A stretch of DNA of 57,474 bases, taken from positions 1 to 57,474 of the IMG/VR virus record IMGVR_UViG_3300005933_000015. One strand, given 5' to 3'. This DNA is from a virus (taxonomy: Duplodnaviria > Caudoviricetes). The notes below the pieces were generated by a model. The model worked only from the letters and a program-made list of their open reading frames with translations. It was not told the origin of the DNA and did no database searches. Positions 34,383 to 48,452 of the stretch are shown here, piece after piece; positions within the stretch are counted from its first letter, which is position 1; the number at the start of each line of letters is the position of its first letter. The translations under genes and the position numbers were made by a program.

Positions 34383-34925
34383 ATGGCAAATTTTATCTCG
34401 TCGACATTCGCAGAACCTCATTGGCAGGATATTCAGACAAAGAGCGTGATCCGCGCAAAGATGATCCACAACTATGACGACGGAAGTTCTAGACAATTCG
34501 ATTGTTCTATATCAAAACCTGCTGTTGAGGGCGAATCTAATCCTGACTGGGACTTTATCATGGATAAGTATGGTGAAGAATTCGTAACAGAATCGACGAC
34601 AGAAGTTATTCAGAAAATTCGAATGAGTGTAGAAAAATCTAGGATTGAAGACGACTCTAGAAAAAAGAAAGAAGAAAGTTTCGCCAAGCAAGAAATACTC
34701 TTTGCGATTAAGTTAGAAGCGTTCGAAATTGAAGAAATTAAAAATTCTAAAAACAGAGAATTAAAGGCGAAGATTCGGAAATCTAAGTCTGTTACTGAAG
34801 TGCAAGCGTATACTACTATTTTATTGATGAAAGAATTTGAGAATGCTAAATCAGAGCCAGCGCCAACAGCAAAACCTGCAACCAAGAAACCCTCTGTCAA
34901 GAAGGAAGAGTCCAGCCAAGAGTAA
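34383..34925 (+). CDS. hypothetical protein (possible fibre assembly chaperone)
   Basis: TAAGGA RBS; charged helical C-terminal half. Confidence 0.7.
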   Translation: MANFISSTFAEPHWQDIQTKSVIRAKMIHNYDDGSSRQFDCSISKPAVEGESNPDWDFIMDKYGEEFVTESTTEVIQKIRMSVEKSRIEDDSRKKKEESFAKQEILFAIKLEAFEIEEIKNSKNRELKAKIRKSKSVTEVQAYTTILLMKEFENAKSEPAPTAKPATKKPSVKKEESSQE

Positions 34926-35664
34926 CGGGTTTTTAATTGTAGCGTCAGTATCTTCTGGATATTATGACTCGGCAATTAACCTTGCTGGTTCTATACTAGA
35001 TTTCTATCCCGAGGCGAAAATAGCACTTTTTACTGAGAAAGAGTTATTTAAAGAAGAACATCGCCACCTCTTCGACTATGTAGAATCTAATTCACCACAT
35101 CATATTCGTGCTAAGTTATGGGCACTTCCCCGCTCACCTTATGCAACAACTGTCTATATAGATGCTGATTGTGAGGTGCGCGATGAAGAAATCTCAGAAG
35201 CATTCTCCCTATTAGATTCCCAAGAACTAGACATTGCAACAACTGCCGTGCGAGATTACTCTGGCGCATTTGTGTATTTTGATGACAACGGTGAGCAGAC
35301 TAAACTTGCTCATCATTGTGGGGTATTTGTATATAACGATAAACCGCAGACTTTAGAGTTTATGCAATCTTGGTGGGAAGAATACCTAGAGCAAGTTTCC
35401 GGAGAGTGGAACTATCCTCATGACAGGCGCTTAAAGCCTTGGGATCAATACACATTTTGGCGGTTGCTTCGTGACACTAGATACTCTACAAGTGTTAAAG
35501 TAGGATTCATAGAAGGCGAGGATGCTCGTTGGAATTTTGTGAATAACTATAAACTTGAAGAGGTCACTAAAGACCCTATTATATTTCATTACACATTAGC
35601 AAAAGATTTCATAGATGCAGGTCGTCTCAATAAAAAACAAACAACTACTCCAGATACTGAATGA
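34837..35664 (+). CDS. GT-A fold glycosyltransferase-like protein
   Basis: RAKLWAL..SPY..TVYIDAD (DxD), GVF, WDQ, RWN, HYT; start uncertain (34837 or 34843). Confidence 0.75.
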   Translation: MRMLNQSQRQQQNLQPRNPLSRRKSPAKSNGFLIVASVSSGYYDSAINLAGSILDFYPEAKIALFTEKELFKEEHRHLFDYVESNSPHHIRAKLWALPRSPYATTVYIDADCEVRDEEISEAFSLLDSQELDIATTAVRDYSGAFVYFDDNGEQTKLAHHCGVFVYNDKPQTLEFMQSWWEEYLEQVSGEWNYPHDRRLKPWDQYTFWRLLRDTRYSTSVKVGFIEGEDARWNFVNNYKLEEVTKDPIIFHYTLAKDFIDAGRLNKKQTTTPDTE

Positions 35665-36256
35665 TTTTAAAGACTGGATGTTTACTGAACCAGTTAATAT
35701 TATTCATGATAAAAAGTTATTTGATCATAAATTACTTTCTTCTATTTCTGCAGAAGAAGGCACTTCTCAAGAATTTCTTAATGATCGTCTAAGCAAAGAC
35801 CCTTATGAAACGGGGTTCCCTTTATACTCTAAAGGGTTTGATATAGGTAATGATAAAAATTCTTGTGATGAGTGGGAATCCGTGTCTAAGAAGATGGACA
35901 TTGATATGATAGAAGCGATTGGTGTTAAGTTCAGCGCTCTGAAGATGTACTATCCTGAAGACGGGTTTATCGGCTGGCATAATAACTGCAACTGTCCAGG
36001 ATACAACTTGGTTATGTCATACAGCGAAACCGGAAACGGATACTTTCAGTATCTAGACCCAACGACCAAGCAAATAGTTCGTATGCAAGATGTTCCAGGA
36101 TGGAGCGCTAAGGTGGGTTACTTCGGATCGTTCACAGAACCTGATAAAATCTTTTGGCATTGCGCTCGTACTCATGAGCCTAGAATTACAGTATCTTACG
36201 TGACACCAGACCAATACATGTGGGAATGCATGATAGAGGATATTCAGAGCGAGTAA
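35615..36256 (+). CDS. cupin / 2OG-Fe(II) oxygenase-like protein
   Basis: YYPEDGFIGWHNN ... FWHCA ... RITVSY double-stranded beta-helix pattern. Confidence 0.55.
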   Translation: MQVVSIKNKQLLQILNDFKDWMFTEPVNIIHDKKLFDHKLLSSISAEEGTSQEFLNDRLSKDPYETGFPLYSKGFDIGNDKNSCDEWESVSKKMDIDMIEAIGVKFSALKMYYPEDGFIGWHNNCNCPGYNLVMSYSETGNGYFQYLDPTTKQIVRMQDVPGWSAKVGYFGSFTEPDKIFWHCARTHEPRITVSYVTPDQYMWECMIEDIQSE

Positions 36257-36894
36257 TATTGCTTAGACAAATCGCCATTGTATAAACATATCATCCTCTC
36301 GGGCATATCATACACACCATCTACCATTCTAGAATGTCTTTTTGGGTCTCTCTGATCATACCCCCAAACTTTACAATAAACCCAATGTGAAGGTAGAACG
36401 TTTATATGGTCTATAAACTCTTGCTCCATAAAGTCATCATTCCCATCATACTTCAATTGATAGTAGTTGGGATCTTGTATAAATCGATTTTGAAATATAC
36501 TACACTGCGCATCCCATATCATTATGCTACTATTGATAGAAGTTAGCCCATCAGTAGGACCAAGTACACTTTTCCACTCAGCAGGAATAACATAAACTCC
36601 TTTGGTTGGCGCATAAGACAATATCTCGTCTATGTTGTTTTGAATATCTATGTCTAGATCAAAGAATACATTATGCCCTTCTAGGGTTAGTATCCACAGT
36701 TTCCACCAATAAGACTCCACATCATTTTTAGGCAATTCTGTTATTTGAATACCGCTGTCGATGTCACTTGGGTCTTCGGTAAAGCATATAAAATTAAACT
36801 TTATAGTGGTATTATCTTGAACTAACTTATATAAACGGTTTACATGAGCGGCAGAATACTTGTCGCCCCATTTTAGACAGATTACATTTACCAT
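36244..36894 (-). CDS. glycosyltransferase-like protein (KWGxKY family)
   Basis: VICLKWGDKY..HVNRLY, WWKL, FFDLD, NSSIM. Confidence 0.75.
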   Translation of the reverse strand: MVNVICLKWGDKYSAAHVNRLYKLVQDNTTIKFNFICFTEDPSDIDSGIQITELPKNDVESYWWKLWILTLEGHNVFFDLDIDIQNNIDEILSYAPTKGVYVIPAEWKSVLGPTDGLTSINSSIMIWDAQCSIFQNRFIQDPNYYQLKYDGNDDFMEQEFIDHINVLPSHWVYCKVWGYDQRDPKRHSRMVDGVYDMPERMICLYNGDLSKQYYSL

Positions 36895-37304
36895 TTCTCA
36901 CCTACAATCGTATAGTAATTGACTCCATTAAACTTTGTGGTAGATGCAAAATTTACTTCATCTAGTTGAGACTGTTCAATAAGAGCCTCTTTAGATGTTG
37001 TTCTATTGACATGTTCGTCGCAATACCTATTGTTAGACTGTAGTAAGTAAGTTGCTGGTAGAGTTATTACTCGCATTGGATACATGTGTTCGCAGCATAG
37101 GTTTATGATTAAGTTGTGAGTGCCATTATTTATTTCTTCAAACCTATAATTAACATTAGACACCTTATCAATCCAGTCTATCTGATCATACTTGGTGAAT
37201 GGTAGCTCTGCACCGGAAACAGATCCCAGTATCAAAACATGCTTATCAACATGAAGTTCCATCACCCGCATTATTTCTATTGCATATTCCGCAGATAATT
37301 TCAT
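36888..37304 (-). CDS. methyltransferase-fold-like protein (short)
   Basis: IINLCCEHM...LLQSNN...HVN resembles INTSCEHI...LQSNN...HVR of ORF 47778. Confidence 0.5.
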   Translation of the reverse strand: MKLSAEYAIEIMRVMELHVDKHVLILGSVSGAELPFTKYDQIDWIDKVSNVNYRFEEINNGTHNLIINLCCEHMYPMRVITLPATYLLQSNNRYCDEHVNRTTSKEALIEQSQLDEVNFASTTKFNGVNYYTIVGEKW

Positions 37305-37969
37305 AACATACCTAGTTCATGCATTTCGAGTTGACCTGGCTGAGTTTCAAAGGTATATATGATAGGTTCTACTGAAGGAGTTTCATTATGATAGGATGCA
37401 ACTAATGGCCTAGGAACAAAGTCAAATTTACTCATATGTTCTGAACTCAAGTAGTTGTCAGAACCATTTATACATACAAAAAATATGTACTCAGAGTTCT
37501 TCACTATATGTTCCCATATTTCCTTGGTATCAGAGGTGTCTTCCCAAACAATTATGCTGCTATTGGTAACTCCACGATAACAAAGATATGCATTATGCGC
37601 GGAGTTTATACCAGCATCGTCTTGCCAGTGTGATCTATTAATCAGTATCTTATTTGCGTGAAGTTCTGTAATTTTATTTAAATTACCTTGAATCAGTATA
37701 TCCAAGTCTAGATATACTTTCTTTCCCATGATACCCCAACAATTAGGTTCCCATATATTGCACTTGGGTTTATCCGGAAAGCGACCATCCATAATAGGTT
37801 GGAATTTGCTAAACGGTAGTTCTATCGCACCATCTATACCTAATACTTTATCTGTTTGGCAATAGAACGCAAATTCGCCAATGTAATTATCCTTTACAGA
37901 TTCATACAACTTCTGCACATATTTGGTACTGTACTTATCGCCCCATAAAGAACAAATGAAACTAATCAT
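37301..37969 (-). CDS. glycosyltransferase-like protein (WGxKY family)
   Basis: MISFICSLWGDKY, YLDLD, NSSII; ATG at 37969 preferred. Confidence 0.72.
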   Translation of the reverse strand: MISFICSLWGDKYSTKYVQKLYESVKDNYIGEFAFYCQTDKVLGIDGAIELPFSKFQPIMDGRFPDKPKCNIWEPNCWGIMGKKVYLDLDILIQGNLNKITELHANKILINRSHWQDDAGINSAHNAYLCYRGVTNSSIIVWEDTSDTKEIWEHIVKNSEYIFFVCINGSDNYLSSEHMSKFDFVPRPLVASYHNETPSVEPIIYTFETQPGQLEMHELGML

Positions 37970-38396
37970 TTCTACCCCATACAATGTAAGAATTAATTCT
38001 ACGATGTGCGATGTGTTTAGTCGCATATACGGTATGTATATTATTCTGCGTTATTAATTGCTTGCAAGAAGTGACTACATTACAATCGCCAGGATGGTTA
38101 TCATCACCGCCGCATATAATTAATACACCATTATATAATTTACCGATTGGATAAGTTTTCTGAGCATTCATATGAATAATGCAATTTGAAAGAGGAGGAG
38201 TCTCAAATATAACATCTACTATATTGCAATTAGAAATATTCTTAAACTTAGGGTCTATATCATAATATGTTAAAGAAATACCCATTGGTGCAACAACCGC
38301 AAATTCATTAAATGTATTCCCCGGAGCAATTATAGATGCATCTAATTCACCCGACTCTAACAACCATTCTATTGCTTGGTAAGTATCTTCACGCAT
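37962..38396 (-). CDS. methyltransferase-fold-like protein (short, divergent)
   Basis: YYDIDP; weak similarity to ORFs 36888 and 47778; ATG at 38396 preferred. Confidence 0.4.
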   Translation of the reverse strand: MREDTYQAIEWLLESGELDASIIAPGNTFNEFAVVAPMGISLTYYDIDPKFKNISNCNIVDVIFETPPLSNCIIHMNAQKTYPIGKLYNGVLIICGGDDNHPGDCNVVTSCKQLITQNNIHTVYATKHIAHRRINSYIVWGRND

Positions 38397-39120
38397 CGTA
38401 GGACTCCCATAATTCCTTAGCCCACCCCTTGGTCTCATGAAGTTCTAATGCGTCCTTAGCGGTCCGATTAAGACGGATGTGAGAGGTGTTGAATAGTGCT
38501 ATCTTGTGTCCAACTTTCTTCTCATTAAGAGCGTTATCATAATTGTAATTGTACGCTATGCCTTCATCCCAAGTGTCTAATCTATCTTTCCAGTAATGTT
38601 GATAAAACAAATACTTATCTAACGAGTTATATGTAAAGAATATCTTCTCAGAGTTTTCTTGTGTATAATCATATAACCATTGACCACTATCACTCGACCA
38701 ATATACAAACGAACTATTGATATGACACGATGCACCGCGCCCATAATTAAACATTGTTCGTTTTTGTAAATCGAACCAGTAATTGAATATCAACTTTGGT
38801 TTAGTGCTCTTTGTTGTAACTAATTCAGTTATGTTGTCATGTATTAGTACATCTAAGTCGATCCATACATTATGTTCCTCATGAGATAAGTTAAACAAAC
38901 ATAACTTCTCCCTAGTGAATACTCTATCCTTGGGATAATTAAATCGATCAAAGGAATTGTAATCTATAATATATACTTCAGGGCGAATACCTTTTTTATC
39001 ATCTGTTATGCAGTGAAATTTAAATGGCGCATCAATGTGCTTCACTAATGAACCATATAGTCGGTTAACATAGTCGCAGGAATATTTGTCTCCCCATTTA
39101 AATGTAAATATATTAATCAT
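38389..39120 (-). CDS. glycosyltransferase-like protein (KWGxKY family)
   Basis: FKWGDKY..YVNRLY, FHCITDD, EKL.LF, WIDLD, NSSFV. Confidence 0.75.
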   Translation of the reverse strand: MINIFTFKWGDKYSCDYVNRLYGSLVKHIDAPFKFHCITDDKKGIRPEVYIIDYNSFDRFNYPKDRVFTREKLCLFNLSHEEHNVWIDLDVLIHDNITELVTTKSTKPKLIFNYWFDLQKRTMFNYGRGASCHINSSFVYWSSDSGQWLYDYTQENSEKIFFTYNSLDKYLFYQHYWKDRLDTWDEGIAYNYNYDNALNEKKVGHKIALFNTSHIRLNRTAKDALELHETKGWAKELWESYDA

Positions 39121-39131
39121 ACCATATCTAT

Positions 39132-40100
39132 ATGCAAGAAGTTAGAATACCATTAAAGAATATTATCAAGTTCGGTCAGAGAACTATGCTTGAGGATGAT
39201 GTATTTAATGTAAGTTGGATATTAGGAAGATTCTGCAACTATAAATGCTCGTACTGTTGGCCATACGCAAATAGTAGCACATTAGACTTTTCCGAACTTT
39301 ATACTTATAAATCTGTAGTGGACCGTATCCACGCCCAAAGCAGCGCAAATGGTTTTTCAAAAATACATTGGAGTTTATCTGGGGGCGAACCTACAACATA
39401 CAAACATTTGATTGAGTTGGTTAGTCATATAGCAGAGTATGAAGAAGAACAAACGATCCATATGACTAGCAACATAAGCCCTGGAATTAAATGGTGGGAT
39501 AAGTGGGAGCGAGATACTAGAAAATTCGCAAGGCGTTCTATCACAGCAAGTTTTCATGCAGAGTTTGCTAAGGAGAATAAGTTCATAGAGAAGTGTTTAC
39601 ATCTAAACAAATTAGGTATTCGCTTGGTGGTCAATCAAGTAATGGTTCCAGAACTATTTGGTGAGACATATGCAAGACTTGCTAAGATGTATGAACTAGG
39701 TATTAATGTTACGATGAAACCTCAAAGTGACGAAACTGCAAGTTCAATTGTATATGGATATACCGAAGAAATGCTTTCATTAATGCAACAAGGGTTTCCA
39801 CAGAAGTATGACGGCAGGGAAATTTCACAGATCGTTATGCATGATGTTGGCGGTGAAACTTATTACATGGATCAAGCAGAGAGGTTCAATGCGTTTGGGT
39901 TTAATGAGTTTTCTGGATGGAAATGTAATGCAGGATATCAAGGGTTGATAATTCGAGGAGATACTATTAAACGGGGTTACTCATGTAATGATGAACCTAT
40001 AGGAAACCTACAAGAATTTAAATTATTCTCTAGTCCAGTAAAGTGTTCCACTCCACGGTGCGTCAGTTCAGCAGATAGTAAGATACCTAAGTTTAAATAA
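39132..40100 (+). CDS. radical SAM protein with C-terminal twitch-like Cys domain
   Basis: CNYKCSYC, GGEP; C-terminal CNAG...SC...C...C. Confidence 0.9.
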   Translation: MQEVRIPLKNIIKFGQRTMLEDDVFNVSWILGRFCNYKCSYCWPYANSSTLDFSELYTYKSVVDRIHAQSSANGFSKIHWSLSGGEPTTYKHLIELVSHIAEYEEEQTIHMTSNISPGIKWWDKWERDTRKFARRSITASFHAEFAKENKFIEKCLHLNKLGIRLVVNQVMVPELFGETYARLAKMYELGINVTMKPQSDETASSIVYGYTEEMLSLMQQGFPQKYDGREISQIVMHDVGGETYYMDQAERFNAFGFNEFSGWKCNAGYQGLIIRGDTIKRGYSCNDEPIGNLQEFKLFSSPVKCSTPRCVSSADSKIPKFK

Positions 40101-40788
40101 TTTCTAAACCAAATTGAGATGGGAGCATTTCTTGAACAAGTTCTATGTGGTTTGGCTCAATATCAAATGATACTGTAGATGCAGTTTCAACCTTAAAATT
40201 GTCAATTATACTTCGTTTGTTTGCACGGTTTAACCACGGACTTATTATACTATCAAACACATATCTAAACTGATAAAATGTACTATCTTTCAGTTGTATC
40301 TTTACTCGCACGGCGGAATTTAACATACAGTGCCGTAGAAGTTTCCTAACAACTAATTGATATCTATCAGACTCGCCGAAGTTACATGCAGTATGAATAT
40401 ATCCCGCGTCCATATGATACCATTTCCCATCTGGCATCAGTTTATGCATAACCTCGTCTGAAAGATTTATAAGGTACGACATCTCGGATGCAATGGTTAA
40501 ATGATATCTATCATCGATATCAGCATGTGATAGGTATGATTGTCCTGGCGAAAGTTTAATAATCCTAGCCTCACCTATTTCAATATCATTTAAAGAACAT
40601 ATTATATTTTCCCAAACCGTATTGATAAATTTAGGTTTACATTTCCACGGATCATAAAAGAAATTTCCAGTGGGTTCGTTAATAACGGTTTTAGAATCTA
40701 TAACAGGCAAGTTATTATTTGCTTGCAGTAAGTCATCTGGTGTTACGCTATATTTTGTAGGTGTTATCATTCTGGCATATATATTCAT
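40093..40788 (-). CDS. Asp/Asn beta-hydroxylase-like Fe(II)/2OG oxygenase
   Basis: ARII.L.PG...HADID, HTACN, R.QLVV. Confidence 0.65.
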   Translation of the reverse strand: MNIYARMITPTKYSVTPDDLLQANNNLPVIDSKTVINEPTGNFFYDPWKCKPKFINTVWENIICSLNDIEIGEARIIKLSPGQSYLSHADIDDRYHLTIASEMSYLINLSDEVMHKLMPDGKWYHMDAGYIHTACNFGESDRYQLVVRKLLRHCMLNSAVRVKIQLKDSTFYQFRYVFDSIISPWLNRANKRSIIDNFKVETASTVSFDIEPNHIELVQEMLPSQFGLEII

Positions 40789-40830
40789 GAGGAACTTTAG
40801 TATTTAGTTTAATTAGTTAGGAAATTTTTA

Positions 40831-42102: not shown

Positions 42103-42931
42103 ATCTATATGCTTAGAAGGAGATACTGAAGTTGCTAATACGATTAGCAAGTTTTACTCAGGGGATAGCGAAAAGATATTTAATAAAAATATTTCTATTA
42201 TCCCAGATTGGTATTGGTATGATGTACCAATTTCATATGAATTCAACTCTAAGGGTTATAGGATGCCTCAGTTTGACGAAGTTAACTGGGATAATTATTT
42301 TATTGCTTTGGGGTGTAGTAATTCTGTTGGAGTTGGATTGCCTTTAGGGGTAACATATACTGGATTATTGAGTGATGAACTGAATATTGATTGTGTTAAC
42401 TTAGGATTATCTGGGGCGAGTAATGATTTTATCACTATGAACTTCATACATAGTATAGACAAACTGCCAAAGAAACCCAAATTCGTAGTAGTTAACTGGA
42501 CTAAACCATATAGGTTTATGTGGTTCAAAAGAACACTTGATATAGAATGGATATATAATTGGGTTCCAAGTGTATCCGCATGGGGTAAGAATAAAGTACC
42601 GGATTTCTGTAGGCATGAAGATTATGTCAGCAGATCTTATGCTAATTTGTCTAATCACGATTTAACTTATCACAATATAAATTCATGGAAGTATAAGCGA
42701 AAGTCTATTCAGTTAATTTGTTCTGCATTAGGAGTGGGTTATGTAGACTTCAGTATGTTTTCGGATTTTTCTGAATACTGCGAGTATATATCAATTGATA
42801 ATTTCGATGTGAATTCTTATTGGGCTCGAGATATTCAGACCGCAAACTTAATAGATCCAACTAAATGCAATGGACATGTTGGTAGGTATCATCATAAACT
42901 AGCATACGAATATACGATAAATCAATTATGA
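42095..42931 (+). CDS. SGNH/GDSL-like protein
   Basis: FNSKGYR, LGCS, NLGLSGASN, terminal GHVG. Confidence 0.6.
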   Translation: MYESICLEGDTEVANTISKFYSGDSEKIFNKNISIIPDWYWYDVPISYEFNSKGYRMPQFDEVNWDNYFIALGCSNSVGVGLPLGVTYTGLLSDELNIDCVNLGLSGASNDFITMNFIHSIDKLPKKPKFVVVNWTKPYRFMWFKRTLDIEWIYNWVPSVSAWGKNKVPDFCRHEDYVSRSYANLSNHDLTYHNINSWKYKRKSIQLICSALGVGYVDFSMFSDFSEYCEYISIDNFDVNSYWARDIQTANLIDPTKCNGHVGRYHHKLAYEYTINQL

Positions 42932-43659
42932 TTAACATAGTAGATAAAGTTGAAATACCATACGATCCTTCTTGGGGTAATATTGCAATAAGCATGTCAG
43001 GAGGAGCAGACAGCACTATACTTGCATATCTACTATGCGATATGATTAAACAAAACGATAACTCTACAGCAGTTCATGTGATCAATCATGTTAGAATGTG
43101 GCAAACGCGCCCATGGCAAGAGTATGACGCACTGAGAATATATGAAGTACTATGCGAAATGTTTCCACAAATTATATTTCATCGACATGTTAATTTTATA
43201 CCTCCAGACCTAGAATATGGTGTTTCTGGACCAACTATAAAAGATGCATATGGTAGAACTGTATCAGGAGACAACATTGCAAAACGCTCATTTGCAGAAT
43301 ATGTATGTAAGAAGTTTTCTGTAGACTGTCATTACAATGGAGTTACTAAGAATCCTCCAGTTCAGATTCGAGGTGCTATGACCGAGCGAGAACTCACTAA
43401 AAATGAATCTAACACACATTTAGAATTTACTACTCATATGGGAATATTTGTTAGTCATCCATTGCGGTTTGTAGATAAATCTTGGGTGTACCGACAGTAT
43501 AGGGACAACGGTCTATTAGAACTATTTGAGCAGACAAGAAGTTGCGAAGGTGAGTTTGACGGATTAGACTATAAGTCATATGGACCATATCAACCAGTCC
43601 CAGTATGCGGTAAGTGTTTCTGGTGTGTAGAAAGAGAATGGTCTATTAAAAATGCATAG
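42928..43659 (+). CDS. QueC-like PP-loop ATP pyrophosphatase
   Basis: SMSGGADST P-loop; C-terminal TRSC...CGKCFWC.ER zinc site. Confidence 0.7.
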   Translation: MINIVDKVEIPYDPSWGNIAISMSGGADSTILAYLLCDMIKQNDNSTAVHVINHVRMWQTRPWQEYDALRIYEVLCEMFPQIIFHRHVNFIPPDLEYGVSGPTIKDAYGRTVSGDNIAKRSFAEYVCKKFSVDCHYNGVTKNPPVQIRGAMTERELTKNESNTHLEFTTHMGIFVSHPLRFVDKSWVYRQYRDNGLLELFEQTRSCEGEFDGLDYKSYGPYQPVPVCGKCFWCVEREWSIKNA

Positions 43660-44539
43660 CGTTCGTAATAGATGGTATAAGGAAAATACCGTAAAGGTAG
43701 AATGGAACATAGGCAAGCGATGTAACTACGACTGCTCATATTGTCCTGCCGAGATACATGACAACCATAGTAAGAGCACACCTATAGATGAACTAATATC
43801 AGCGGCAGACCAGTTGCTTCAGATAAACAAGCATATGAGGATTAGTTTCACGGGTGGAGAACCATGTGTCAATAAAGGTCTACCGCAGTTAATAGAATAT
43901 ATTAAGTTGAACGGAGTAAGTTTCGTAAGTGTCACAACAAATGGTACTATGCCAGCAGATTACTACGCCTGTCAAAGGGTTGATCAGTATGTGTTTAGTG
44001 TACATTTTGAATACGACACCGAAAGGGTGTTAGAAACTATACTATCAATAAATGATCTGAACAAATTTCAAATTGTAGTTCATGTTATGGTGTTAGAAGA
44101 ACAGATAGAGCGTGTGCATAGTGTTGTAGATACACTAGACGTTGCTGGAATTCCATATGTGCTAAGGCGAATCCGTTGGAACAGTGGTTTAAGCAGAGAT
44201 GACTTTGATGACTCTCGATATGAAACCAAAACAATACAGTGGATGGTTAACAGCGCTGCGACAGTTAAACCCAATTGTATTGTAGATGACACAACTTTAA
44301 TACATGCAAACGATGTATTGAAAACAAATACTAATCAATTCCAAGGGTGGTCATGTAACGCAGGAATAGAAAGTTTGATGATAGATCAGGATGGAGAAGT
44401 GTACAGAGCAACTTGTAGAGTAGGTGGTAGATTAGGAAACATATATAATGAGAAGTTTACTATACCGAATGAATGGATAACATGCACTAGAACGTTCTGC
44501 ACATGTGAATCCGATATACCATTAACAAAATGCAAATAG
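43652..44539 (+). CDS. radical SAM protein with C-terminal twitch-like domain
   Basis: CNYDCSYC, FTGGEP, TTNG; CNAG...C...C...CTC. Confidence 0.9.
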   Translation: MHSVRNRWYKENTVKVEWNIGKRCNYDCSYCPAEIHDNHSKSTPIDELISAADQLLQINKHMRISFTGGEPCVNKGLPQLIEYIKLNGVSFVSVTTNGTMPADYYACQRVDQYVFSVHFEYDTERVLETILSINDLNKFQIVVHVMVLEEQIERVHSVVDTLDVAGIPYVLRRIRWNSGLSRDDFDDSRYETKTIQWMVNSAATVKPNCIVDDTTLIHANDVLKTNTNQFQGWSCNAGIESLMIDQDGEVYRATCRVGGRLGNIYNEKFTIPNEWITCTRTFCTCESDIPLTKCK

Positions 44540-45372
44540 ACAATTTAGACACAAGGAAATATAAGAGATTCTTTGCATTTGGATGCAGTTTCACTTGGTA
44601 CTACTGGCCGACGTGGGCAGACATCATCGGAAGAGAGATACCCTACTATGAAAATTGGGGACGCGGCGGAGCAGGAAACCAGTTCATATTTAATTCATTA
44701 ATAGAATGTAACTTGCGGAATAAGTTCACAGAAGATGATCTGGTTATAGTAATGTGGACTAGTTGTTCTAGAGAAGATAGATACGTTGATAATGATTGGT
44801 TATTATCTGCAACGGAAAATCGTAAATCTGTATATGGTAATACATGGATGCGAAGGTTTGCTAATCAAGACAAGGGTTTGATGATACGCGATTTTGCATC
44901 CATACAATCAACACAAACCTTATTAGATTCGTTTAATGTAGACTGGGTTAATTTAAATAGTCTACCTCTGATAAGATTTGATATAGATCGAGCAGAAAGA
45001 GATATCAAGAATGGTATTGCTTCTATAAACGACCTAGAAACTCGCTGGGCAGATCAGCAACAACACTTGCATGAAAATAATGGATACTTTGATGAATACC
45101 TAAAAGGTAAATCTGTAGTAGAGTTATATAAAGATATATTTCCCAATATCAAAGAGTCTCTGTATAGAACAATACTTAATAACAAAAAGAGACCCAACTT
45201 CGGAGATCTACATCCAACACCAATCGAATCCCTAAATTATTTGAATAAAGTAATACCTAATAATTTAAAGTCGAATGAATATGTCAACGGTTGGAATGAT
45301 ATGGTTTTGATGATAGAAATTGTAAATCAAATGCCAGAAAAATTTGTTAGGAAACTCCCATTCAGGTTTTAG
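44530..45372 (+). CDS. SGNH/GDSL-like protein
   Basis: FGCSFT, NWGRGGAGN, DLHP. Confidence 0.6.
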   Translation: MQIDNLDTRKYKRFFAFGCSFTWYYWPTWADIIGREIPYYENWGRGGAGNQFIFNSLIECNLRNKFTEDDLVIVMWTSCSREDRYVDNDWLLSATENRKSVYGNTWMRRFANQDKGLMIRDFASIQSTQTLLDSFNVDWVNLNSLPLIRFDIDRAERDIKNGIASINDLETRWADQQQHLHENNGYFDEYLKGKSVVELYKDIFPNIKESLYRTILNNKKRPNFGDLHPTPIESLNYLNKVIPNNLKSNEYVNGWNDMVLMIEIVNQMPEKFVRKLPFRF

Positions 45373-46366
45373 ACTTAGAAATATGTGTATCTGGTTGACA
45401 TGAACAATTTATCCTAGGGCATGTAATACTATCTAGTTTAAACATAGACATATCGAATTCATCGATGAAGTCCTCTGAGAAAATGTTTAGATTAGACCCT
45501 TTGAACAACTGTTCTTGACACGACCCCTTTACCGATCCATCATAACTGATAACTAGGTTTTCCTTTGCTACATCACATTTCCATCCATGGAAAAAGTTCC
45601 ATCTACCGTTAATATGAGTTTCTGGGCGACAAGAAACTGCTGATCCATCGTCAAATATAGCAACGCTCTTTACAACGCTCAATACATCCATTCGAGGTAA
45701 TATCCATTCTCCAGGAGGTATACGTTTGAGTGAGGGGTTAATGTATGCAAGTTGATCGGGAGTGTATGAATTGATATCTTTACCAGGAGACTCTACAACA
45801 CTTTTTGCTTCAACAATCCACAGTTCTTTACTCCTTAGCATCTTGTTAATAAGACCGACACATTTATCCCAAGCGGTCGCATCCATCAACATTATAGAAT
45901 TAATAATAACACCTTTACGATACAACATGTCAGCAACACTTATGAAGTGTTCTATGTTCACGAATTCATGATGACAACTTAACACTGCTTTGTCTATGTG
46001 TTCAGAATTTTCTTCCCACCAACGAAGAGTCCTAGATCCGTTGGAAGTTACTTGGATTCTGACATCATGTTGTTCTTTGATCTCTCGACAGAACTGCCCG
46101 AGGTGAGGCCACATTGTAGGTTCACCCCCTCCTACTAAATTTATCAGATATGTATTTTTACCAAACTTCTCATTATATACATCAAACAATCTGCGAAAGT
46201 TTTTTATCACAGTGTCAATATTCTTTGGATACCTATACACTGCATCTTTAGAACCCGGAAAGCAATATCCACAATCATAGTTACATATATCAGTTGGCCA
46301 GAATCTAATATCAAGAACATTAGATTCTTGGGTATTGACGATTCGTATTATTTTATTTTTATTCAT
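45362..46366 (-). CDS. radical SAM protein with C-terminal twitch-like domain
   Basis: CNYDCGYC, GGGEP, TSNG; C...SC...C...CSC. Confidence 0.9.
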   Translation of the reverse strand: MNKNKIIRIVNTQESNVLDIRFWPTDICNYDCGYCFPGSKDAVYRYPKNIDTVIKNFRRLFDVYNEKFGKNTYLINLVGGGEPTMWPHLGQFCREIKEQHDVRIQVTSNGSRTLRWWEENSEHIDKAVLSCHHEFVNIEHFISVADMLYRKGVIINSIMLMDATAWDKCVGLINKMLRSKELWIVEAKSVVESPGKDINSYTPDQLAYINPSLKRIPPGEWILPRMDVLSVVKSVAIFDDGSAVSCRPETHINGRWNFFHGWKCDVAKENLVISYDGSVKGSCQEQLFKGSNLNIFSEDFIDEFDMSMFKLDSITCPRINCSCQPDTHISKSKT

Positions 46367-47777
46367 ATATCAAATGAGCAAGCTCTGGAAATATTTCTAT
46401 AAATTTAGTATTACGGATACCATCCATCTTAGTAACATACTCTGAGAAAGCGCTGAGTTCTTTGCTATTATCTAAACCGTCCATAAAATCTAGTATTGCT
46501 TGCCAGCGCTTCCATCCATATGGATTAGTTTCCCAGAAGTTCTCATCAGTCCTATAGTTTACATATAACCATTCTTTAAATTCTGCAAATATTCTATGAA
46601 CTTCCTCTTTATCTTTCTTAGGTAGCGTTGTAATACTTAACCAAGTTGGGATATATAACAAATGCATATTAAATATGCCTCCACCCGCTTCGGTATCGTT
46701 ATATACATTCTGCAGATTCACTTTAGTAAACCCTTGTGTTATTTTCCATTTAGCAAACTCAGGTAAATGTTTAATATTCATTATCTGTATGGCGGTTGCA
46801 ATACTAACATGAATATTATCTGGGGTATTATCCAATTTATGTAAGTTACGCACAATAGTATCCCAATTACTAGGATACCTGATGTATGCGTTCCTATCGG
46901 TGAGTGCATCAACACTAAATCCTATCTTAACTTGCTTGAAATTTTTCCACAAATCAATAATATCATCATTCAATAGTAGTCCGTTGGTGTTATATCGCAA
47001 TTGGATTTTATCATGATATCCTTGTCTGATAATTTCTTCAACAAATTTTCTATGCTCTTTAATCATTAGGGGTTCTCCCCCTGCGAAATACACTTGCTTC
47101 AAATTAGGTATCTGAGCATACATTTCTTTCCAGAAGTCAGGGTTCTCATACCATGAGTTATTGAATTTAGTTGAGTCCCATGCCATCTGTTTGCGTAAAG
47201 ATTCATGACTCAGTATCGGGATTAACTTTTTATGATCTGCGACCCATCTACTGCTATCATGGGGACTACACATAATACATTTTATGTTACATGTATGCCC
47301 AAGTCGTAGGTCTAAATACGCAAGTTTTTCTGGTACAGTTCCATCCCCTTCGGTATCATCTACAAGTTTTCCAATATCATAACCATCTTCCATCCAAGTT
47401 CCGGTCTCCCATATTCGTTTACTAACAACATGTTTAGATTCTTCTGCGAAACACTTAGTACATGAAGCTGGAATTTCTCCAGATAACATAGTGGTGCGCA
47501 CGCTTTTCATATAATCATTATTCCACGCACTCATTGGAGTTTCTCTACCAAAATTTGCTGGAGAACCAGTTTCATTCTTCACCAACCCAATTGTATGATC
47601 TTCCCCGGCACCACTGCTATTGCTATTACAACATAGGCGCATATCACCATTAGGACGAGTTGCAAAGTGCATCCAAGGCAAAATACAGAAAGTATCAGAT
47701 CCAGTTATATCAGATATCTTTTTTTGATATCTACCAATGGTGCTATCTTCGGGTTGTATCCAATGTACTTTATTCAT
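46359..47777 (-). CDS. radical SAM protein with N-terminal SPASM/twitch domain
   Basis: FCILPW..LCC...CTKC, then CNIKCIMC, FAGGEP, NTNG. Confidence 0.9.
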   Translation of the reverse strand: MNKVHWIQPEDSTIGRYQKKISDITGSDTFCILPWMHFATRPNGDMRLCCNSNSSGAGEDHTIGLVKNETGSPANFGRETPMSAWNNDYMKSVRTTMLSGEIPASCTKCFAEESKHVVSKRIWETGTWMEDGYDIGKLVDDTEGDGTVPEKLAYLDLRLGHTCNIKCIMCSPHDSSRWVADHKKLIPILSHESLRKQMAWDSTKFNNSWYENPDFWKEMYAQIPNLKQVYFAGGEPLMIKEHRKFVEEIIRQGYHDKIQLRYNTNGLLLNDDIIDLWKNFKQVKIGFSVDALTDRNAYIRYPSNWDTIVRNLHKLDNTPDNIHVSIATAIQIMNIKHLPEFAKWKITQGFTKVNLQNVYNDTEAGGGIFNMHLLYIPTWLSITTLPKKDKEEVHRIFAEFKEWLYVNYRTDENFWETNPYGWKRWQAILDFMDGLDNSKELSAFSEYVTKMDGIRNTKFIEIFPELAHLIYE

Positions 47778-48380
47778 TTAATCTTTGTGTCCAATAATCA
47801 TATATCTATTGTATAGTGGTAAAGGTAGTTCTCCAGCATATGTGATAGAACCTAAGTTGCTTTGATGTGTAAATTCTTCTAACGACCTCGATATCCTTAC
47901 ATGCTCTTTTATCTCGTAGTTATTACTTTGCAGTACAACTAGGGCATCGCCAGGGATTTTATCTAACCAGCTGTCGTATTGATCTTGTGTTATGTGCTCG
48001 CATGAGGTATTTATTGCGACATCTGCAAGAGAATAAATACTACACATATCAGAGGTTATTGCTTGGAACATCCCTTTACTATACTCGACACGGTTAATTT
48101 CTTCTGCTGTGCGTTTACAAGTGGGGTCGATATCAATGCTACGGATGCTTGTTATATCGAAATCACTTTGAAACAACATACTGGATAATATGCCCGTCCA
48201 ACCTCCAAAGATATCAATGGAGATATCCTCTTGTTTATTTAAAATGTCTGTCAGTTTGTTAACAACCCATTCTTTACTGGATACTTGTCCACGCCACATC
48301 GAATCCATAACCCTAGTTGGATCATCTGATGTTCGGATTGCATGTATCCAATAATGTAAGTGTTCTAAGTCTATTCTCAT
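47778..48380 (-). CDS. class I SAM-dependent methyltransferase-like protein
   Basis: IFGGWTG (motif I), SIDID, DM, INTSCEH. Confidence 0.7.
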   Translation of the reverse strand: MRIDLEHLHYWIHAIRTSDDPTRVMDSMWRGQVSSKEWVVNKLTDILNKQEDISIDIFGGWTGILSSMLFQSDFDITSIRSIDIDPTCKRTAEEINRVEYSKGMFQAITSDMCSIYSLADVAINTSCEHITQDQYDSWLDKIPGDALVVLQSNNYEIKEHVRISRSLEEFTHQSNLGSITYAGELPLPLYNRYMIIGHKD

Positions 48381-48444: not shown

Positions 48445-48452
48445 TATAAATA
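48445..48452 (+). promoter_or_regulatory. late promoter TATAAATA
   Basis: Exact consensus upstream of ORF 48485. Confidence 0.75.

What the first reader, a model, noticed from the sequence alone, without database searches (positions are those of the whole stretch)
34837..48380. 17-gene tailoring-enzyme island inside the virion genes: candidate phage system for modifying its own virion proteins
Seen: between two fibre-gene blocks are 5 radical SAM/twitch enzymes, 4 GT-like genes, 3 methyltransferase-like genes, 2 Fe/2OG-like oxygenases, 2 SGNH-like proteins and a QueC-like PP-loop enzyme, with no replication or nucleotide-metabolism genes. Established: rSAM-SPASM/twitch enzymes mostly modify peptides or proteins (RiPP maturases, anSME); 2OG hydroxylases can create hydroxyl acceptors for glycosyltransferases; SGNH proteins add or remove O-acyl groups; virion glycosylation is known in some phages. 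Inference: this resembles a biosynthetic gene cluster for decorating fibres or capsid (hydroxylate, glycosylate, methylate/acylate, radical chemistry), or possibly the host surface, rather than DNA.
Basis: partly seen in the sequence, partly recalled or inferred. Interest (0 to 1): 0.85.

Follow-up and report, generated by a model that had tools for sequence, protein, structure and literature searches.

The report
Radical-SAM sugar-tailoring island in phage
A marine T4-like phage carries, between its tail-fibre genes, a gap-free 17-gene block of soluble enzymes: a widely shared five-radical-SAM cassette joined to its own set of sugar transferases. It most likely makes and attaches an unusual sugar, but what receives the sugar is unknown.

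Summary
The island is real: 17 ORFs with 53 non-coding bases in 13.5 kb, and no predicted membrane protein. Tools support 12 of the 17 assignments: 5 radical SAM (two are full-length N_Twi_rSAM, NF033640), 3 paralogous GT8-like GT-A transferases, 2 p200-type methyltransferase-fold proteins, 1 Fe/2OG oxygenase and 1 QueC-like PP-loop protein. Five rest on motifs only.

The island has two parts. The right arm (39132-48380) is a mobile cassette. Its marker enzyme has 246 IMG/VR relatives at 63-72% identity, mostly ~360-kb jumbo phages, and 7 bacterial MAG loci. There it sits beside nucleotide-sugar enzymes and GT2 genes, not beside fibre genes. The left arm (34837-39120) is specific to this lineage and is kept after the fibre genes in the one close relative that can be read.

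Of 80 relatives, 18 have the fibre-assembly gene 2.5-8.8 kb from the baseplate giant gene, against 17.8 kb here, so the island is an insertion in the hypervariable fibre region. Such regions with GT8 genes and radical SAM cassettes are in print for pelagimyophages (PMC7029224).

The best reading is sugar tailoring plus transfer, with the acceptor unresolved. This scan has found the same cassette before on other DNA.

The parts
34837..35664 (+). 275-aa ORF (TTG start, overlaps 34383-34925). Candidate nucleotide-sugar transferase, not verified.
   Evidence: DAD motif by eye. hhalign to the GT-like profile aligns only the DxD stretch, E 0.14. No Pfam, PHROG, NCBIfam or PDB match. Homologue at 50% identity in L085 at the same position.
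35615..36256 (+). 213-aa protein of unresolved fold class: jelly-roll/2OG-like or tail-assembly-chaperone-like.
   Evidence: No family hit. No hhalign match to the island's 2OG family. Atlas leads: a viral 'Asp/Asn beta-hydroxylase domain' cluster at 0.93; structure TM 0.72 to a Phage_tail_APC cluster, 0.56 to 2OG-FeII_Oxy_3. 48% homologue in L085.
36244..36894 (-). GT8-like GT-A glycosyltransferase, paralogue 1.
   Evidence: phrog_1962 glycosyltransferase, E 2.5e-7. 26% identical to 38389, with invariant DxD.
36888..37304 (-). 138-aa truncated paralogue of p200 (methyltransferase-fold family).
   Evidence: hhalign against the p200 profile: probability 97%, E 8.6e-11 over 131 columns.
37301..38026 (-). 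GT8-like GT-A glycosyltransferase, paralogue 2. The true start is probably the internal Met.
   Evidence: phrog_1962, E 1e-4. 29% identical to 38389, invariant DxD.
37962..38438 (-). 158-aa protein of unknown function.
   Evidence: No family hit. hhalign to p200: probability 1%. 46% homologue in L085.
38389..39120 (-). GT8-like retaining GT-A glycosyltransferase, paralogue 3.
   Evidence: AF2 pLDDT 91.6. Foldseek PDB: GlyE E 8.7e-9, UGGT, LgtC TMq 0.63, LARGE1 0.64. BFVD: phage 'Glycosyltransferase' TM 0.86 and 'Glycosyl transferase family 8' TM 0.68. 153 homologue clusters, none named.
39132..40100 (+). Short radical SAM (rS322) with a C-terminal Cys cluster; cassette core.
   Evidence: Pfam Radical_SAM 41.1 bits. 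Present in 79 of 80 cassette loci. Invariant C-terminal Cys in the short-rSAM alignment.
40093..40788 (-). Fe/2OG oxygenase of the Asp/Asn beta-hydroxylase type.
   Evidence: PF05118 28.4 bits, cut-off 22.6. Invariant H88, D90, H132, R142. In 54 of 80 loci.
40831..42102 (+). N-terminal-twitch radical SAM (NTwiA).
   Evidence: NF033640 320.6 bits, cut-off 170. SPASM hit at residues 10-70, ahead of the radical SAM core. In 80 of 80 loci.
42095..42931 (+). 278-aa accessory protein, distant paralogue of 44530. SGNH-like by motif only.
   Evidence: hhalign to the 44530 family: probability 78%, E 1.8e-5. In 7 of 80 loci.
42928..43659 (+). PP-loop ATPase, QueC-like.
   Evidence: Invariant SGGADS and four C-terminal Cys. 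ATP_bind_3 21.3 bits, below cut-off 27. TilS_N E 4.9e-6; QueC TIGR00364 13.1 bits against 150.3. phrog_1550 QueC-like, E 2.5e-6. In 55 of 80 loci.
43652..44539 (+). Short radical SAM (rS295).
   Evidence: Pfam 48.3 bits. In 80 of 80 loci. Profile of the three short rSAM families: best PDB matches 9dfn E 3.6e-14, MoaA 4.4e-12, viperin-like 5.9e-12.
44530..45372 (+). 280-aa accessory protein of a large viral family. SGNH-like by motif only.
   Evidence: 1233 representative clusters. Invariant G-C-S, G-N, D, R.D, W, H-P. No PDB sequence match. Atlas: viral clusters, DUF6071 in 13% of one cluster. In 3 of 80 loci.
45362..46366 (-). Short radical SAM (rS334).
   Evidence: Pfam 41.1 bits. Strict family present in 60 of 80 loci.
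46359..47777 (-). N-terminal-twitch radical SAM (NTwiB), the marker of the cassette.
   Evidence: NF033640 392.6 bits. 246 IMG/VR relatives. 4560 protein clusters at E <= 0.001. 7 bacterial MAG loci.
47778..48380 (-). p200: class I SAM-dependent methyl(alkyl)transferase fold; cassette core.
   Evidence: AF2 pLDDT 95.5. Foldseek: MtNAS E 1.9e-10, NTMT, PhzM, ChlM, TMq 0.6-0.69. In 78 of 80 loci. Found fused behind 1-2 'f5' domains in 6 of 26 longer relatives.
33233..34363 (+). Flank: 376-aa fibre-region protein with a Tyr/Gly-rich, roughly 8-residue-period C-terminal tract.
   Evidence: 14 Tyr in 40 aa. 30-32% homologues in L085 and L096. No family hit.
48485..48913 (+). Flank: LtfC-like fibre-assembly protein with a TATAAATA late-promoter motif 39 nt upstream.
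   Evidence: phrog_1084 E 1e-26 and phrog_3304 E 1.5e-20. Motif at 48445.
25460..30685 (+). Flank: 1741-aa baseplate-region giant protein, used as the anchor for synteny.
   Evidence: phrog_358 1499 bits. 591 IMG/VR relatives.

Best explanation
The island is a composite, cytoplasmic glycan-tailoring unit inserted in the hypervariable tail-fibre region of a marine T4-like myophage.

Its right arm is a mobile cassette: five radical SAM enzymes, an Fe/2OG hydroxylase, a QueC-like ATP-dependent amidating enzyme and a SAM-dependent alkyltransferase. This arm converts a common precursor, probably a nucleotide-sugar, into a heavily modified sugar. Its left arm holds three to four retaining GT-A (GT8-like) transferases and a second p200-type enzyme, and transfers this and other sugars onto an acceptor.

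Shown: the gene content, the folds, the conservation and mobility of the cassette, its neighbours elsewhere, and the absence of membrane proteins.
Inferred: the nucleotide-sugar substrate, the order of steps, and the acceptor. I leave the acceptor open between a host envelope glycan (superinfection exclusion) and the phage's own fibre proteins, at about equal odds.
For: - The cassette core is shared by the 80 fetched IMG/VR loci: 78-80 of 80 for four of the five rSAM genes (79-80) and p200 (78); the fifth rSAM, rS334, is in 60 by strict family; 54-55 of 80 for the 2OG and PP-loop genes.
- Around the cassette in 14 jumbo-phage loci (133 ORFs scanned), the named neighbours include UDP-glucose dehydrogenase x2, nucleotide-sugar epimerase x2 and an HldE-like heptose enzyme. 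Short NAD-epimerase-like, class III aminotransferase and further 2OG families also occur.
- In 7 bacterial MAG loci, 39 of 97 ORFs are radical SAM, 7 are GT2 and 1 is GT1.
- An independent T4-like relative, L136, also pairs a GT-like gene with two rSAM genes downstream of the baseplate giant gene.
- 38389 folds as a retaining GT-A like GlyE, UGGT, LgtC and LARGE1. p200 has a class I methyltransferase fold, and 36888 in the GT arm is its paralogue.
- The short rSAM profile is nearest to nucleotide-binding MoaA and viperin-like enzymes. The N-twitch profile also touches BlsE, which acts on a nucleoside-sugar, at E 7e-4.
- None of the 17 proteins has a hydrophobic 19-mer above 1.45, apart from a start-codon artefact in 37301.
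- Only 53 nt are non-coding, so there is no room for a precursor-peptide gene.
Against: - The window's island holds no recognisable nucleotide-sugar synthesis gene (no nucleotidyltransferase, no dehydratase).
- SPASM/twitch radical SAM enzymes and AspH-type oxygenases often act on peptides or proteins. The best PDB match of the N-twitch profile is the peptide maturase SkfB (E 4.2e-7).
- Matches of the radical SAM cores to MoaA and viperin may reflect only the shared SAM-binding core.
- No product, acceptor or expression data exist. No cultured phage carries the cassette: 3 weak hits among 50,697 records.
- Five of the 17 genes are still unassigned.
Confidence: 0.5

Rival explanations
1. One reading: the enzymes decorate the phage's own virion proteins (fibres or capsid). 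They would hydroxylate, glycosylate and methylate or acylate them, and the radical SAM enzymes might act on the protein itself.
For: - The island lies inside the fibre gene block. The left arm keeps that place in the closest readable relative, L085.
- 34837 and 35615 overlap the preceding fibre-region ORFs on the same strand.
- The nearest solved folds of 38389 include enzymes that work on protein-linked glycans: GlyE, UGGT, LARGE1, XXYLT1, glycogenin.
- AspH-type 2OG enzymes hydroxylate proteins (general knowledge).
- All products are soluble.
- Viral precedents exist: PBCV-1 A064R (GT-GT-methyltransferase on the capsid glycan) and mimivirus L230 (hydroxylase plus GT on collagen-like proteins), from passages of PMC9614988.
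Against: - The cassette is not linked to structural genes elsewhere. 0 of 80 loci carry a window fibre or baseplate gene. The gp6-like gene is 26-120 kb away in all 5 jumbo contigs with a hit, of 10 searched. Only one head protease appears among the top 25 flank families.
- The cassette also sits in bacterial chromosomes beside efflux and housekeeping genes.
- No Tyr-rich or otherwise conserved candidate substrate protein travels with it: 0 of 1470 ORFs.
- None of the 7 TATAAATA motifs lies in the island.
- LgtC, also a top fold hit, acts on lipooligosaccharide.
Confidence: 0.2
2. A small-molecule pathway: a nucleoside, aminocyclitol-like or cofactor-like metabolite that is not attached to a macromolecule and is used to manipulate the host or competitors.
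For: - Other copies carry a class III aminotransferase.
- One family, f25, looks amidinotransferase-like by eye only; no family hit.
- CP220/CPt10 rSAM clusters each hold a putative glycine amidinotransferase (PMC2853527, passages).
- A cyanophage paper reads a similar trio as 'antibiotic synthesis genes' (PMC12801897, passages).
- The enzymes include a QueC-like protein and rSAMs with viperin/MoaA-like cores.
Against: - Three to four glycosyltransferases in the window, GT2 genes in bacteria, and nucleotide-sugar enzymes in the flanks point to a glycan.
- No transporter or resistance gene lies in the island.
Confidence: 0.12
3. DNA hypermodification: a modified base or a sugar on a base that protects phage DNA from restriction.
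For: - The island has a QueC-like PP-loop protein and a QueE-like PHROG hit on 43652.
- T4-like phages commonly modify their DNA (general knowledge).
- CP220, rich in radical SAM genes, replaces G by a 7-deazaguanine derivative (bioRxiv 10.1101/2023.04.13.536721, passages).
- A QueD-like gene lies about 9 kb from the cassette in one jumbo contig.
Against: - PF01702 (TGT/DpdA) is absent from 5 of 5 records, including a 93%-complete jumbo genome, while 14 of 14 control genomes ring.
- QueD is about 210 kb from the cassette in that genome and absent from 3 of 5 records.
- The PP-loop protein fails every QueC model cut-off.
- Five or more radical SAM enzymes exceed any known base pathway.
- The window holds only 35% of the genome, and divergent DpdA3/4 types could be missed, so this is not excluded.
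Confidence: 0.1
4. A RiPP-type peptide natural-product cluster matured by SPASM/twitch radical SAM enzymes.
For: NCBIfam and PDB give weak partial hits to peptide maturases such as SkfB, PapB and CefB.
Against: - There is no room for a precursor gene: 53 nt non-coding.
- No small ORF family is conserved with the cassette. The only small family noted, f37, looks like IF-1 by eye.
- All hits to maturase families are far below their cut-offs.
- No protease or exporter is present.
Confidence: 0.03

Closest known systems
Host recognition cluster (HRC) of pelagimyophages and cyanomyophages (Zaragoza-Solas et al. 2020, PMC7029224; passages read)
   Same: A large hypervariable region that holds the tail fibres of marine T4-like phages. 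It also holds many glycosyltransferases (GT8 the most common) and sugar enzymes such as UDP-glucose 6-dehydrogenase and rfaE. [quoted passage not shown] The window phage is a distant relative: gp6 is 38-41% identical to Melnitz, Mosig and HTVC008M.
   Different: The paper does not dissect the radical SAM cassettes and attributes the GTs to host O-chain modification. Here the cassette is resolved gene by gene and traced to jumbo phages and bacteria. I did not test whether the 1741-aa protein is the paper's VrlC. The figures and supplements were not seen.
NCBIfam NF033640, N_Twi_rSAM (twitch domain-containing radical SAM protein)
   Same: 40831 and 46359 match the full model above its cut-off. 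The auxiliary-cluster domain precedes the radical SAM core.
   Different: The family has a name but no known reaction, so membership gives no function.
Multi-radical-SAM regions of Campylobacter phages CP220/CPt10 (Timms et al. 2010, PMC2853527; passages) and of a T4-like marine environmental genome with 12 radical SAM genes (Nishimura et al. 2017, PMC5332604; passages)
   Same: T4-like phages with 11-12 radical SAM genes. These include an exchangeable five-gene radical SAM module judged non-essential, and Fe-S assembly genes nearby. A NifU-like gene also flanks the cassette in one locus here.
   Different: tblastn with NTwiB found no Campylobacter phage at E <= 1e-5, so homology of the modules is not shown. 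Their function is equally unknown.
Virus-encoded glycosylation of virion proteins: PBCV-1 A064R/A061L and mimivirus L230 (Chem Rev 2022, PMC9614988; passages)
   Same: Soluble viral GT-A transferases with DxD motifs work together with class I methyltransferases, or with an Fe/2OG hydroxylase, on the virus's own structural proteins. p200 occurs fused behind other domains in 26 longer relatives, which recalls the multi-domain A064R.
   Different: No sequence relationship was shown. The fused 'f5' domain could not be identified as a GT. Those systems have no radical SAM enzymes. The acceptor here is unknown.
Earlier reports of this scan on other DNA (e1-5411587, e1-5403660, e1-6006905)
   Same: They describe the same cassette: N-twitch pair, short rSAM trio, 2OG, QueC-like. 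They report the same recurrence in hundreds of uncultured phages and in Bdellovibrio-type bacteria, and give the same 'unusual sugar, product unknown' reading.
   Different: Here the cassette sits in a ~160-kb-class T4-like phage (57 kb at CheckV 35%), directly inside the fibre block. It is joined to a lineage-specific arm of three paralogous GT8-like genes, and no late-promoter motif was found inside it.

Membership tests
Radical SAM superfamily (PF04055) | CxxxCxxC cluster motif and a score above the Pfam gathering cut-off | tested here: met
   All five ORFs score 37.6-51.4 bits against a cut-off of 29.5. CNYKCSYC, CNLKCRMC, CNYDCSYC, CNYDCGYC and CNIKCIMC are read.
NF033640 N_Twi_rSAM | Full-length match above the curated cut-off (170 bits), with the twitch/SPASM-type Cys domain N-terminal to the core | tested here: met
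   40831: 320.6 bits over model positions 1-397. 46359: 392.6 bits over 1-397. SPASM hits lie at residues 10-70 and 31-109. The three short rSAMs are not members (22.9-31.7 bits or none).
RiPP radical SAM/SPASM maturase systems | An adjacent precursor-peptide gene, and a match to a maturase equivalog above its cut-off | tested here: not met
   Only 53 non-coding nt in 13.5 kb. The best maturase equivalogs score 17-45 bits against cut-offs of 300-650.
QueC (7-cyano-7-deazaguanine synthase) and the 7-deazaguanine DNA pathway | Score above the QueC model cut-off | tested here: not met
   TIGR00364: 13.1 bits against 150.3. PF06508 gives no hit in the window; the cassette copy in G005 scores 16.2 bits against 22.
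QueC (7-cyano-7-deazaguanine synthase) and the 7-deazaguanine DNA pathway | PP-loop SGGxDS motif and a C-terminal Cys (zinc) motif | tested here: met
   S24, G25, G26, A27, D28, S29 and C206, C227, C230, C233 are invariant in 30 sequences. That QueC binds zinc through such a motif is recalled, not taken from a call.
QueC (7-cyano-7-deazaguanine synthase) and the 7-deazaguanine DNA pathway | Companion genes: DpdA/TGT inserting enzyme and QueD | tested here: not met
   PF01702: 0 of 5 records. PF01242: 2 of 5, none in the window. The window is 35% complete, and divergent DpdA types may be missed.
Fe(II)/2-oxoglutarate oxygenase, Asp/Asn beta-hydroxylase type (PF05118) | Score above cut-off and an HxD...H triad with a 2OG-binding Arg | tested here: met
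   40093: 28.4 bits against 22.6. H88, D90, H132 and R142 are invariant in 26 sequences. 35615 is not shown to belong.
Retaining GT-A glycosyltransferases of the GT8 type | GT-A fold with a DxD motif, and nearest structures in GT8/GT24 | tested here: met
   Model pLDDT 91.6. GlyE, UGGT, LgtC, LARGE1 and glycogenin-2 match at E 1e-8 to 1e-7, TMq 0.53-0.64. D88 and D90 are invariant in 45 sequences. Sequence-level membership in CAZy GT8 was not tested; the PDB profile hit to glycogenin is only E 1.1.
Class I SAM-dependent methyltransferases | Rossmann-type methyltransferase fold with a Gly-rich SAM loop and an acidic residue after strand 2 | tested here: met
   p200 model pLDDT 95.5. At least 500 Foldseek matches at E <= 0.001; the top 50 listed are SAM-dependent methyl- or alkyltransferases. 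G59, G60, W61, G63 and D83, D85 are invariant. No sequence-level match to any solved protein. Methyl versus aminocarboxypropyl transfer cannot be told; the top hit is a nicotianamine-synthase-like enzyme.
SGNH/GDSL hydrolases | Blocks I (GDS), II (G), III (GxND) and V (DxxH), and an SGNH fold | tested here: inconclusive
   The 44530 family keeps G-C-S, G-N and H-P invariant, but block I has Cys for Asp and block V reads D-x-H. No PDB or Pfam match.
Hypervariable fibre region ('host recognition cluster') of marine T4-like phages | Lies between conserved baseplate genes and fibre genes, and its content varies among relatives | tested here: met
   Of 80 relatives, 32 have at least 5 kb downstream of the giant gene. 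18 have the LtfC-like gene 2.5-8.8 kb downstream, against 17.8 kb in the window. 3 of 80 (L085, L136, L154) carry any island gene.

The most novel reading that the evidence does not exclude
The cassette makes a new class of radical-SAM-tailored sugar. This phage's own GT8-like transferases attach it to its tail-fibre proteins, so the receptor-binding organelle is self-glycosylated with a sugar that no host makes. This would be the first radical-SAM-built virion glycan in a phage and a new way of tuning or shielding host recognition.
Probability: 0.15. Interest if true: 0.8.

Novelty: new member of a known kind. Interest (0 to 1): 0.45.

Why it matters
A cassette of five or more radical SAM enzymes, kept at 63-74% identity across thousands of environmental sequences and moved between T4-like phages, jumbo phages and predatory bacteria, must do something important. 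Nobody knows what.

This window offers a compact natural version: ten cassette genes next to three or four transferases, all soluble. It would be a convenient starting point for heterologous reconstitution.

If the product is a new sugar placed on host or phage surfaces, it bears on how abundant marine phages control host recognition and superinfection. The chemistry would also extend what radical SAM enzymes are known to do to carbohydrates.

Tried and rejected
- Close DNA relatives: megablast of the island against 50,697 phage records found none.
- Cultured phages with the cassette: tblastn of NTwiB found 3 weak hits (Ralstonia RsoM2USA 23.7%, Vibrio K566/K567 19.3%). tblastn of GT-like 38389 found none.
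- Relatives of the Tyr-rich protein 33233-34363 in IMG/VR: none. The LtfC-like protein gave only 3 loci.
- Tyr-rich protein as the conserved substrate: rejected. None of 1470 ORFs in the 80 cassette loci has 10 or more Tyr in 40 aa.
- A Cys-rich N-terminal extension on the GT-like protein of L136 as a twitch domain shared with the N_Twi rSAMs: hhalign found no such match.
- 'f5' domain as a glycosyltransferase. This family occurs in 46 cassette loci and is fused to p200 in 6 longer proteins. It has no PDB match. hhalign to the GT profile aligns only a DxD stretch, E 0.25. Its precomputed Pfam label is DUF4197. Left unresolved.
- 37962 as a methyltransferase, 35615 as a relative of the island's 2OG enzyme and 34837 as a GT: none confirmed.
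- PDB sequence searches with the p200, PP-loop, 44530 and GT profiles gave nothing significant.
- Recent transfer judged from composition: the island has 36.2-36.9% GC against 39.3-41.4% in the flanks. GC3 values overlap, so no conclusion.
- Sigma-70 and terminator scans were at chance level: 71 sites found against 71.3 expected.
- The PDB entry 9dfn, best match of the short rSAMs, could not be traced in the paper library.
- Complex prediction, the look-up of sequencing runs and read laying were not used. No binding claim is made, and expression data for an uncultured phage fragment would not name the product.
Table S1E of PMC5332604 and the genome figures and tables of PMC7029224 may list the same cassette, and I could not see them.

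Full report
**What the window is.** The 57,474-base window is the whole record held. CheckV-type completeness is 35%.

It is a fragment of a T4-like myophage. It encodes a DNA ligase, a gp32-type ssDNA-binding protein, tail tube, baseplate hub, gp5-like hub-lysozyme and gp6-, gp7- and gp8-like wedge proteins. It also encodes a 1741-aa baseplate-region giant protein (phrog_358, 1499 bits) and fibre proteins.

The gp6-like protein is at best 40.8% identical to Methylophilales phage Melnitz, 38% to the pelagimyophages Mosig and HTVC008M, and about 35% to cyanomyophages. It is therefore a marine T4-like lineage without a cultured close relative. Megablast of the island finds nothing among 50,697 phage records.

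**The observation.** Between 34837 and 48380 lie 17 ORFs. Only 53 nt are non-coding: gaps of 11 and 42 nt, with every other junction overlapping or abutting. The transcription direction changes five times within the block.

Family searches give:
- Five radical SAM proteins (39132, 40831, 43652, 45362, 46359), all above the Pfam cut-off.
- 40831 and 46359 are full-length members of NCBIfam NF033640, N_Twi_rSAM (320.6 and 392.6 bits, cut-off 170). Their SPASM/twitch-type cysteine domain lies in front of the radical SAM core.
- An Asp/Asn-beta-hydroxylase-type Fe/2OG oxygenase (40093). Its H, D, H and R are invariant in 26 homologues.
- A PP-loop protein (42928) with invariant SGGADS and four C-terminal cysteines. 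It stays below every curated cut-off, including QueC (13.1 bits against 150.3).
- Two hits to a phage glycosyltransferase PHROG (36244, 37301).

Ten of the 17 have no Pfam hit. For those I used structure and profile comparisons:
- 38389, 36244 and 37301 are paralogues (26-29% identity, invariant DxD). A model of 38389 (pLDDT 91.6) matches retaining GT-A enzymes of the GT8/GT24/GT6 kind: GlyE, UGGT, LgtC, LARGE1, glycogenin-2. It also matches phage proteins labelled GT8.
- p200 (47778) folds with pLDDT 95.5 into a class I SAM-methyltransferase fold. 36888 is a truncated paralogue of it (hhalign 97%, E 8.6e-11).
- 42095 and 44530 are distant paralogues in a viral family of 1233 representative clusters. 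The SGNH label rests only on G-C-S, G-N and D-x-H-P motifs.
- 34837 (fourth GT?), 35615 (second 2OG?) and 37962 (third methyltransferase?) could not be confirmed.

So 12 of the 17 assignments stand and five are open. None of the proteins has a membrane-spanning stretch.

**The island has two parts.** tblastn of all window proteins against 80 IMG/VR loci fetched with NTwiB splits the island (246 of 247 candidate stretches confirmed, best 80 kept, 63-72% identity).

Right-arm genes recur:
- rS322 79 of 80; NTwiA 80; rS295 80; rS334 80 (60 by a strict family criterion).
- p200 78; PP-loop 55; 2OG 54.
- The two SGNH-like genes: 7 and 3.

Left-arm genes recur in none, except 36888 in 4 loci, consistent with its p200 paralogy. 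None of the window's fibre or baseplate genes is present in these loci.

Gene order within the cassette is reshuffled but tight. Other copies carry a sixth radical SAM family in 72 loci and further radical SAM, 2OG, short NAD-epimerase-like and class III aminotransferase genes. NTwiB alone has 4560 related protein clusters at E <= 0.001 among 7555 candidates, the best at 70-74% identity.

**Where the cassette lives elsewhere.**
- The carriers with long contigs are jumbo phages. Ten searched records of 60-331 kb have estimated completeness of 16-93%, which implies genomes of about 360 kb.
- A gp6-like wedge gene was found in five of the ten. It lies 26-120 kb from the cassette in each.
- A PHROG scan of 133 flanking ORFs from 14 loci shows, among the 25 most frequent families: UDP-glucose dehydrogenase (2), nucleotide-sugar epimerase (2), an HldE-like heptose enzyme, thymidylate synthase, DHFR, a NifU-like Fe-S assembly protein, a TauD-like dioxygenase and homing endonucleases. 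One head maturation protease appears and no fibre family. Only the top 25 of 68 families are displayed.
- Seven bacterial MAG contigs also hold it: three Pseudobdellovibrionaceae, one Bacteriovoracaceae, one Bdellovibrionales, one labelled Parcubacteria and one Chloroflexota. These clusters are even richer in radical SAM genes: 39 of 97 ORFs, with 7 GT2, 1 GT1 and 2 QueC-like. They are set among ordinary chromosomal genes such as AcrB, OEP, NDK and cyclophilin.

**Where the island sits in this lineage.** I used the 1741-aa protein as an anchor: 591 IMG/VR relatives, of which 80 were fetched.
- Baseplate synteny is conserved.
- Of the 80 loci, 32 have at least 5 kb downstream of the giant gene. 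Eighteen show the LtfC-like fibre-assembly gene only 2.5-8.8 kb downstream, against 17.8 kb in the window.
- Only three loci hold any island gene.
- L085 is the closest relative with downstream sequence (64% identity in the giant protein). It has homologues of 34383, 34837, 35615, a GT-like gene, 37962 and 38389 (30-63% identity) in the same order, and then the contig ends.
- L136 has a GT-like gene followed by two radical SAM genes. L154 has an NTwiA-like gene.

The island is therefore an insertion in a hypervariable slot among the fibre genes. The GT arm is older in this lineage, and GT and radical SAM genes have come together there more than once.

Exactly this kind of region is in print as the 'host recognition cluster' of pelagimyophages. 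It holds many GT8 genes, rfaE and UDP-glucose dehydrogenase, and radical SAM cassettes distinguish two related genomes. The authors read it as host O-chain modification (PMC7029224, passages).

**Expression signals.** All seven TATAAATA matches in the window lie within about 50 nt upstream of structural genes. That total equals the chance expectation of 6.65. One lies 39 nt before the LtfC-like gene at the island's right edge, and none lies inside the island.

The first plus-strand genes (34837, 35615) overlap the preceding fibre-region ORFs and could be read through from them. The minus-strand p200 operon has only a sigma-70-like TTTATA-N18-TATAAT upstream, in a scan that is at chance level overall. 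This is weak evidence that most of the island is not under its own late promoters.

**What it most likely does.** I read the right arm as a pathway that turns a common nucleotide-sugar, or a closely related precursor, into a heavily modified sugar. I read the left arm as the transferases that use it.

For this reading:
- GT genes accompany the cassette in three independent settings: the window, L136 and the bacterial loci.
- Nucleotide-sugar enzymes flank it in jumbo phages.
- The p200 fold, and a p200 paralogue placed among the GT genes.
- A QueC-like enzyme could amidate a carboxylate such as that of a uronic acid (inference).
- Profiles of the short radical SAM enzymes are nearest to MoaA and viperin-like enzymes, which bind nucleoside triphosphates (E 4e-12 to 6e-12).
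- The N-twitch profile touches the nucleoside-sugar decarboxylase BlsE (E 7e-4).

Against this reading:
- The best N-twitch match is the peptide maturase SkfB (E 4.2e-7).
- AspH-type oxygenases and SPASM enzymes often work on proteins.
- The window's island has no nucleotide-sugar synthesis gene of its own.

**The acceptor is unresolved.** All products are soluble, and there is no lipid-carrier transferase, flippase or polymerase. This fits a cytoplasmic acceptor such as a phage protein or DNA. It equally fits soluble steps that feed host envelope pathways.

The nearest folds of the GT include both a lipooligosaccharide enzyme (LgtC) and enzymes that extend protein-linked glycans (GlyE, UGGT, LARGE1). 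Viral precedents for self-glycosylation exist: PBCV-1 A064R/A061L and mimivirus L230 (PMC9614988).

p200 occurs as the C-terminal domain of 26 longer proteins. Six of these carry one or two N-terminal 'f5' domains. I could not show that f5 is a glycosyltransferase.

**Rivals.**
- DNA hypermodification is weakened but not excluded. TGT/DpdA is absent from 5 of 5 records, including a 93%-complete jumbo genome, with 14 of 14 control genomes positive. QueD is far from the cassette in that genome. The window is only a third of its genome.
- A RiPP reading fails for lack of any precursor gene.
- A free small-molecule product remains possible. An aminotransferase occurs in other copies. Putative amidinotransferases are reported beside rSAM genes in CP220/CPt10 and a cyanophage (PMC2853527, PMC12801897).
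The cassette is not linked to structural genes elsewhere, and the proposed Tyr-rich substrate is unique to this phage.

**Novelty.** The kind is known as an observation. Multi-radical-SAM modules are reported in T4-like phages, and GT- and radical-SAM-bearing fibre regions in pelagimyophages. This scan has already reported the same cassette several times on other DNA.

What this window adds is a compact version in which the cassette is joined to a GT8-like arm directly inside the fibre block of a T4-like phage. The function is still unknown, and that is the real interest.

Noticed in passing
window 33233-34363 (+): 376-aa fibre-region protein whose last ~100 residues are a Tyr/Gly/Thr-rich tract with a roughly 8-residue period (14 Tyr in 40 aa). 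The L085 homologue keeps the aromatic period but is less Tyr-rich. Both end in LWLRT.
   Followed up: partly
window 14192, 15916, 15951, 20812, 24006, 48445, 48920: All seven exact TATAAATA matches lie just upstream of baseplate, tail or fibre genes, although the total equals the chance expectation (6.65). They behave like T4-type late promoters.
   Followed up: partly
L166:6790-20317 and L169:918-21381 (bacterial MAG contigs): Runs of about ten or more consecutive radical SAM genes, many of them N-twitch paralogues. They lie on a 1.27-Mb contig labelled Parcubacteria and on a Chloroflexota contig. This is far more than in any phage copy.
   Followed up: partly
P0255, P0262, P0264, P0265, P0244 (proteins): The p200 methyltransferase-fold domain occurs as the C-terminal domain of 650-1220-aa proteins. 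Their N-terminal part holds one or two copies of the uncharacterised 'f5' domain that also accompanies the cassette in 46 of 80 loci.
   Followed up: partly
L136:16933-18021 (-): A GT-like homologue with a ~110-aa Cys-rich N-terminal extension, followed by two radical SAM genes. It lies 3-6 kb downstream of the baseplate giant gene of a distant T4-like relative. hhalign did not relate the extension to the N-twitch domain.
   Followed up: partly
L008:758-976 (-) and six other jumbo-phage loci (family f37): A 72-aa ORF near the cassette whose N-terminus looks like translation initiation factor IF-1. This is by eye only; no search was made.
   Followed up: no
flanks of cassette loci (alignment A6): A NifU-like Fe-S cluster assembly gene lies within 10 kb of the cassette in one jumbo-phage locus. 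This fits the published note that T4-like marine genomes rich in radical SAM genes also carry Fe-S assembly genes (PMC5332604).
   Followed up: no
window 34383-34925 (+): 180-aa Lys/Glu-rich protein without any family hit, conserved at 48% in L085. It lies between the Tyr-rich protein and the first island gene, and its end overlaps the 34837 ORF by 89 nt.
   Followed up: no
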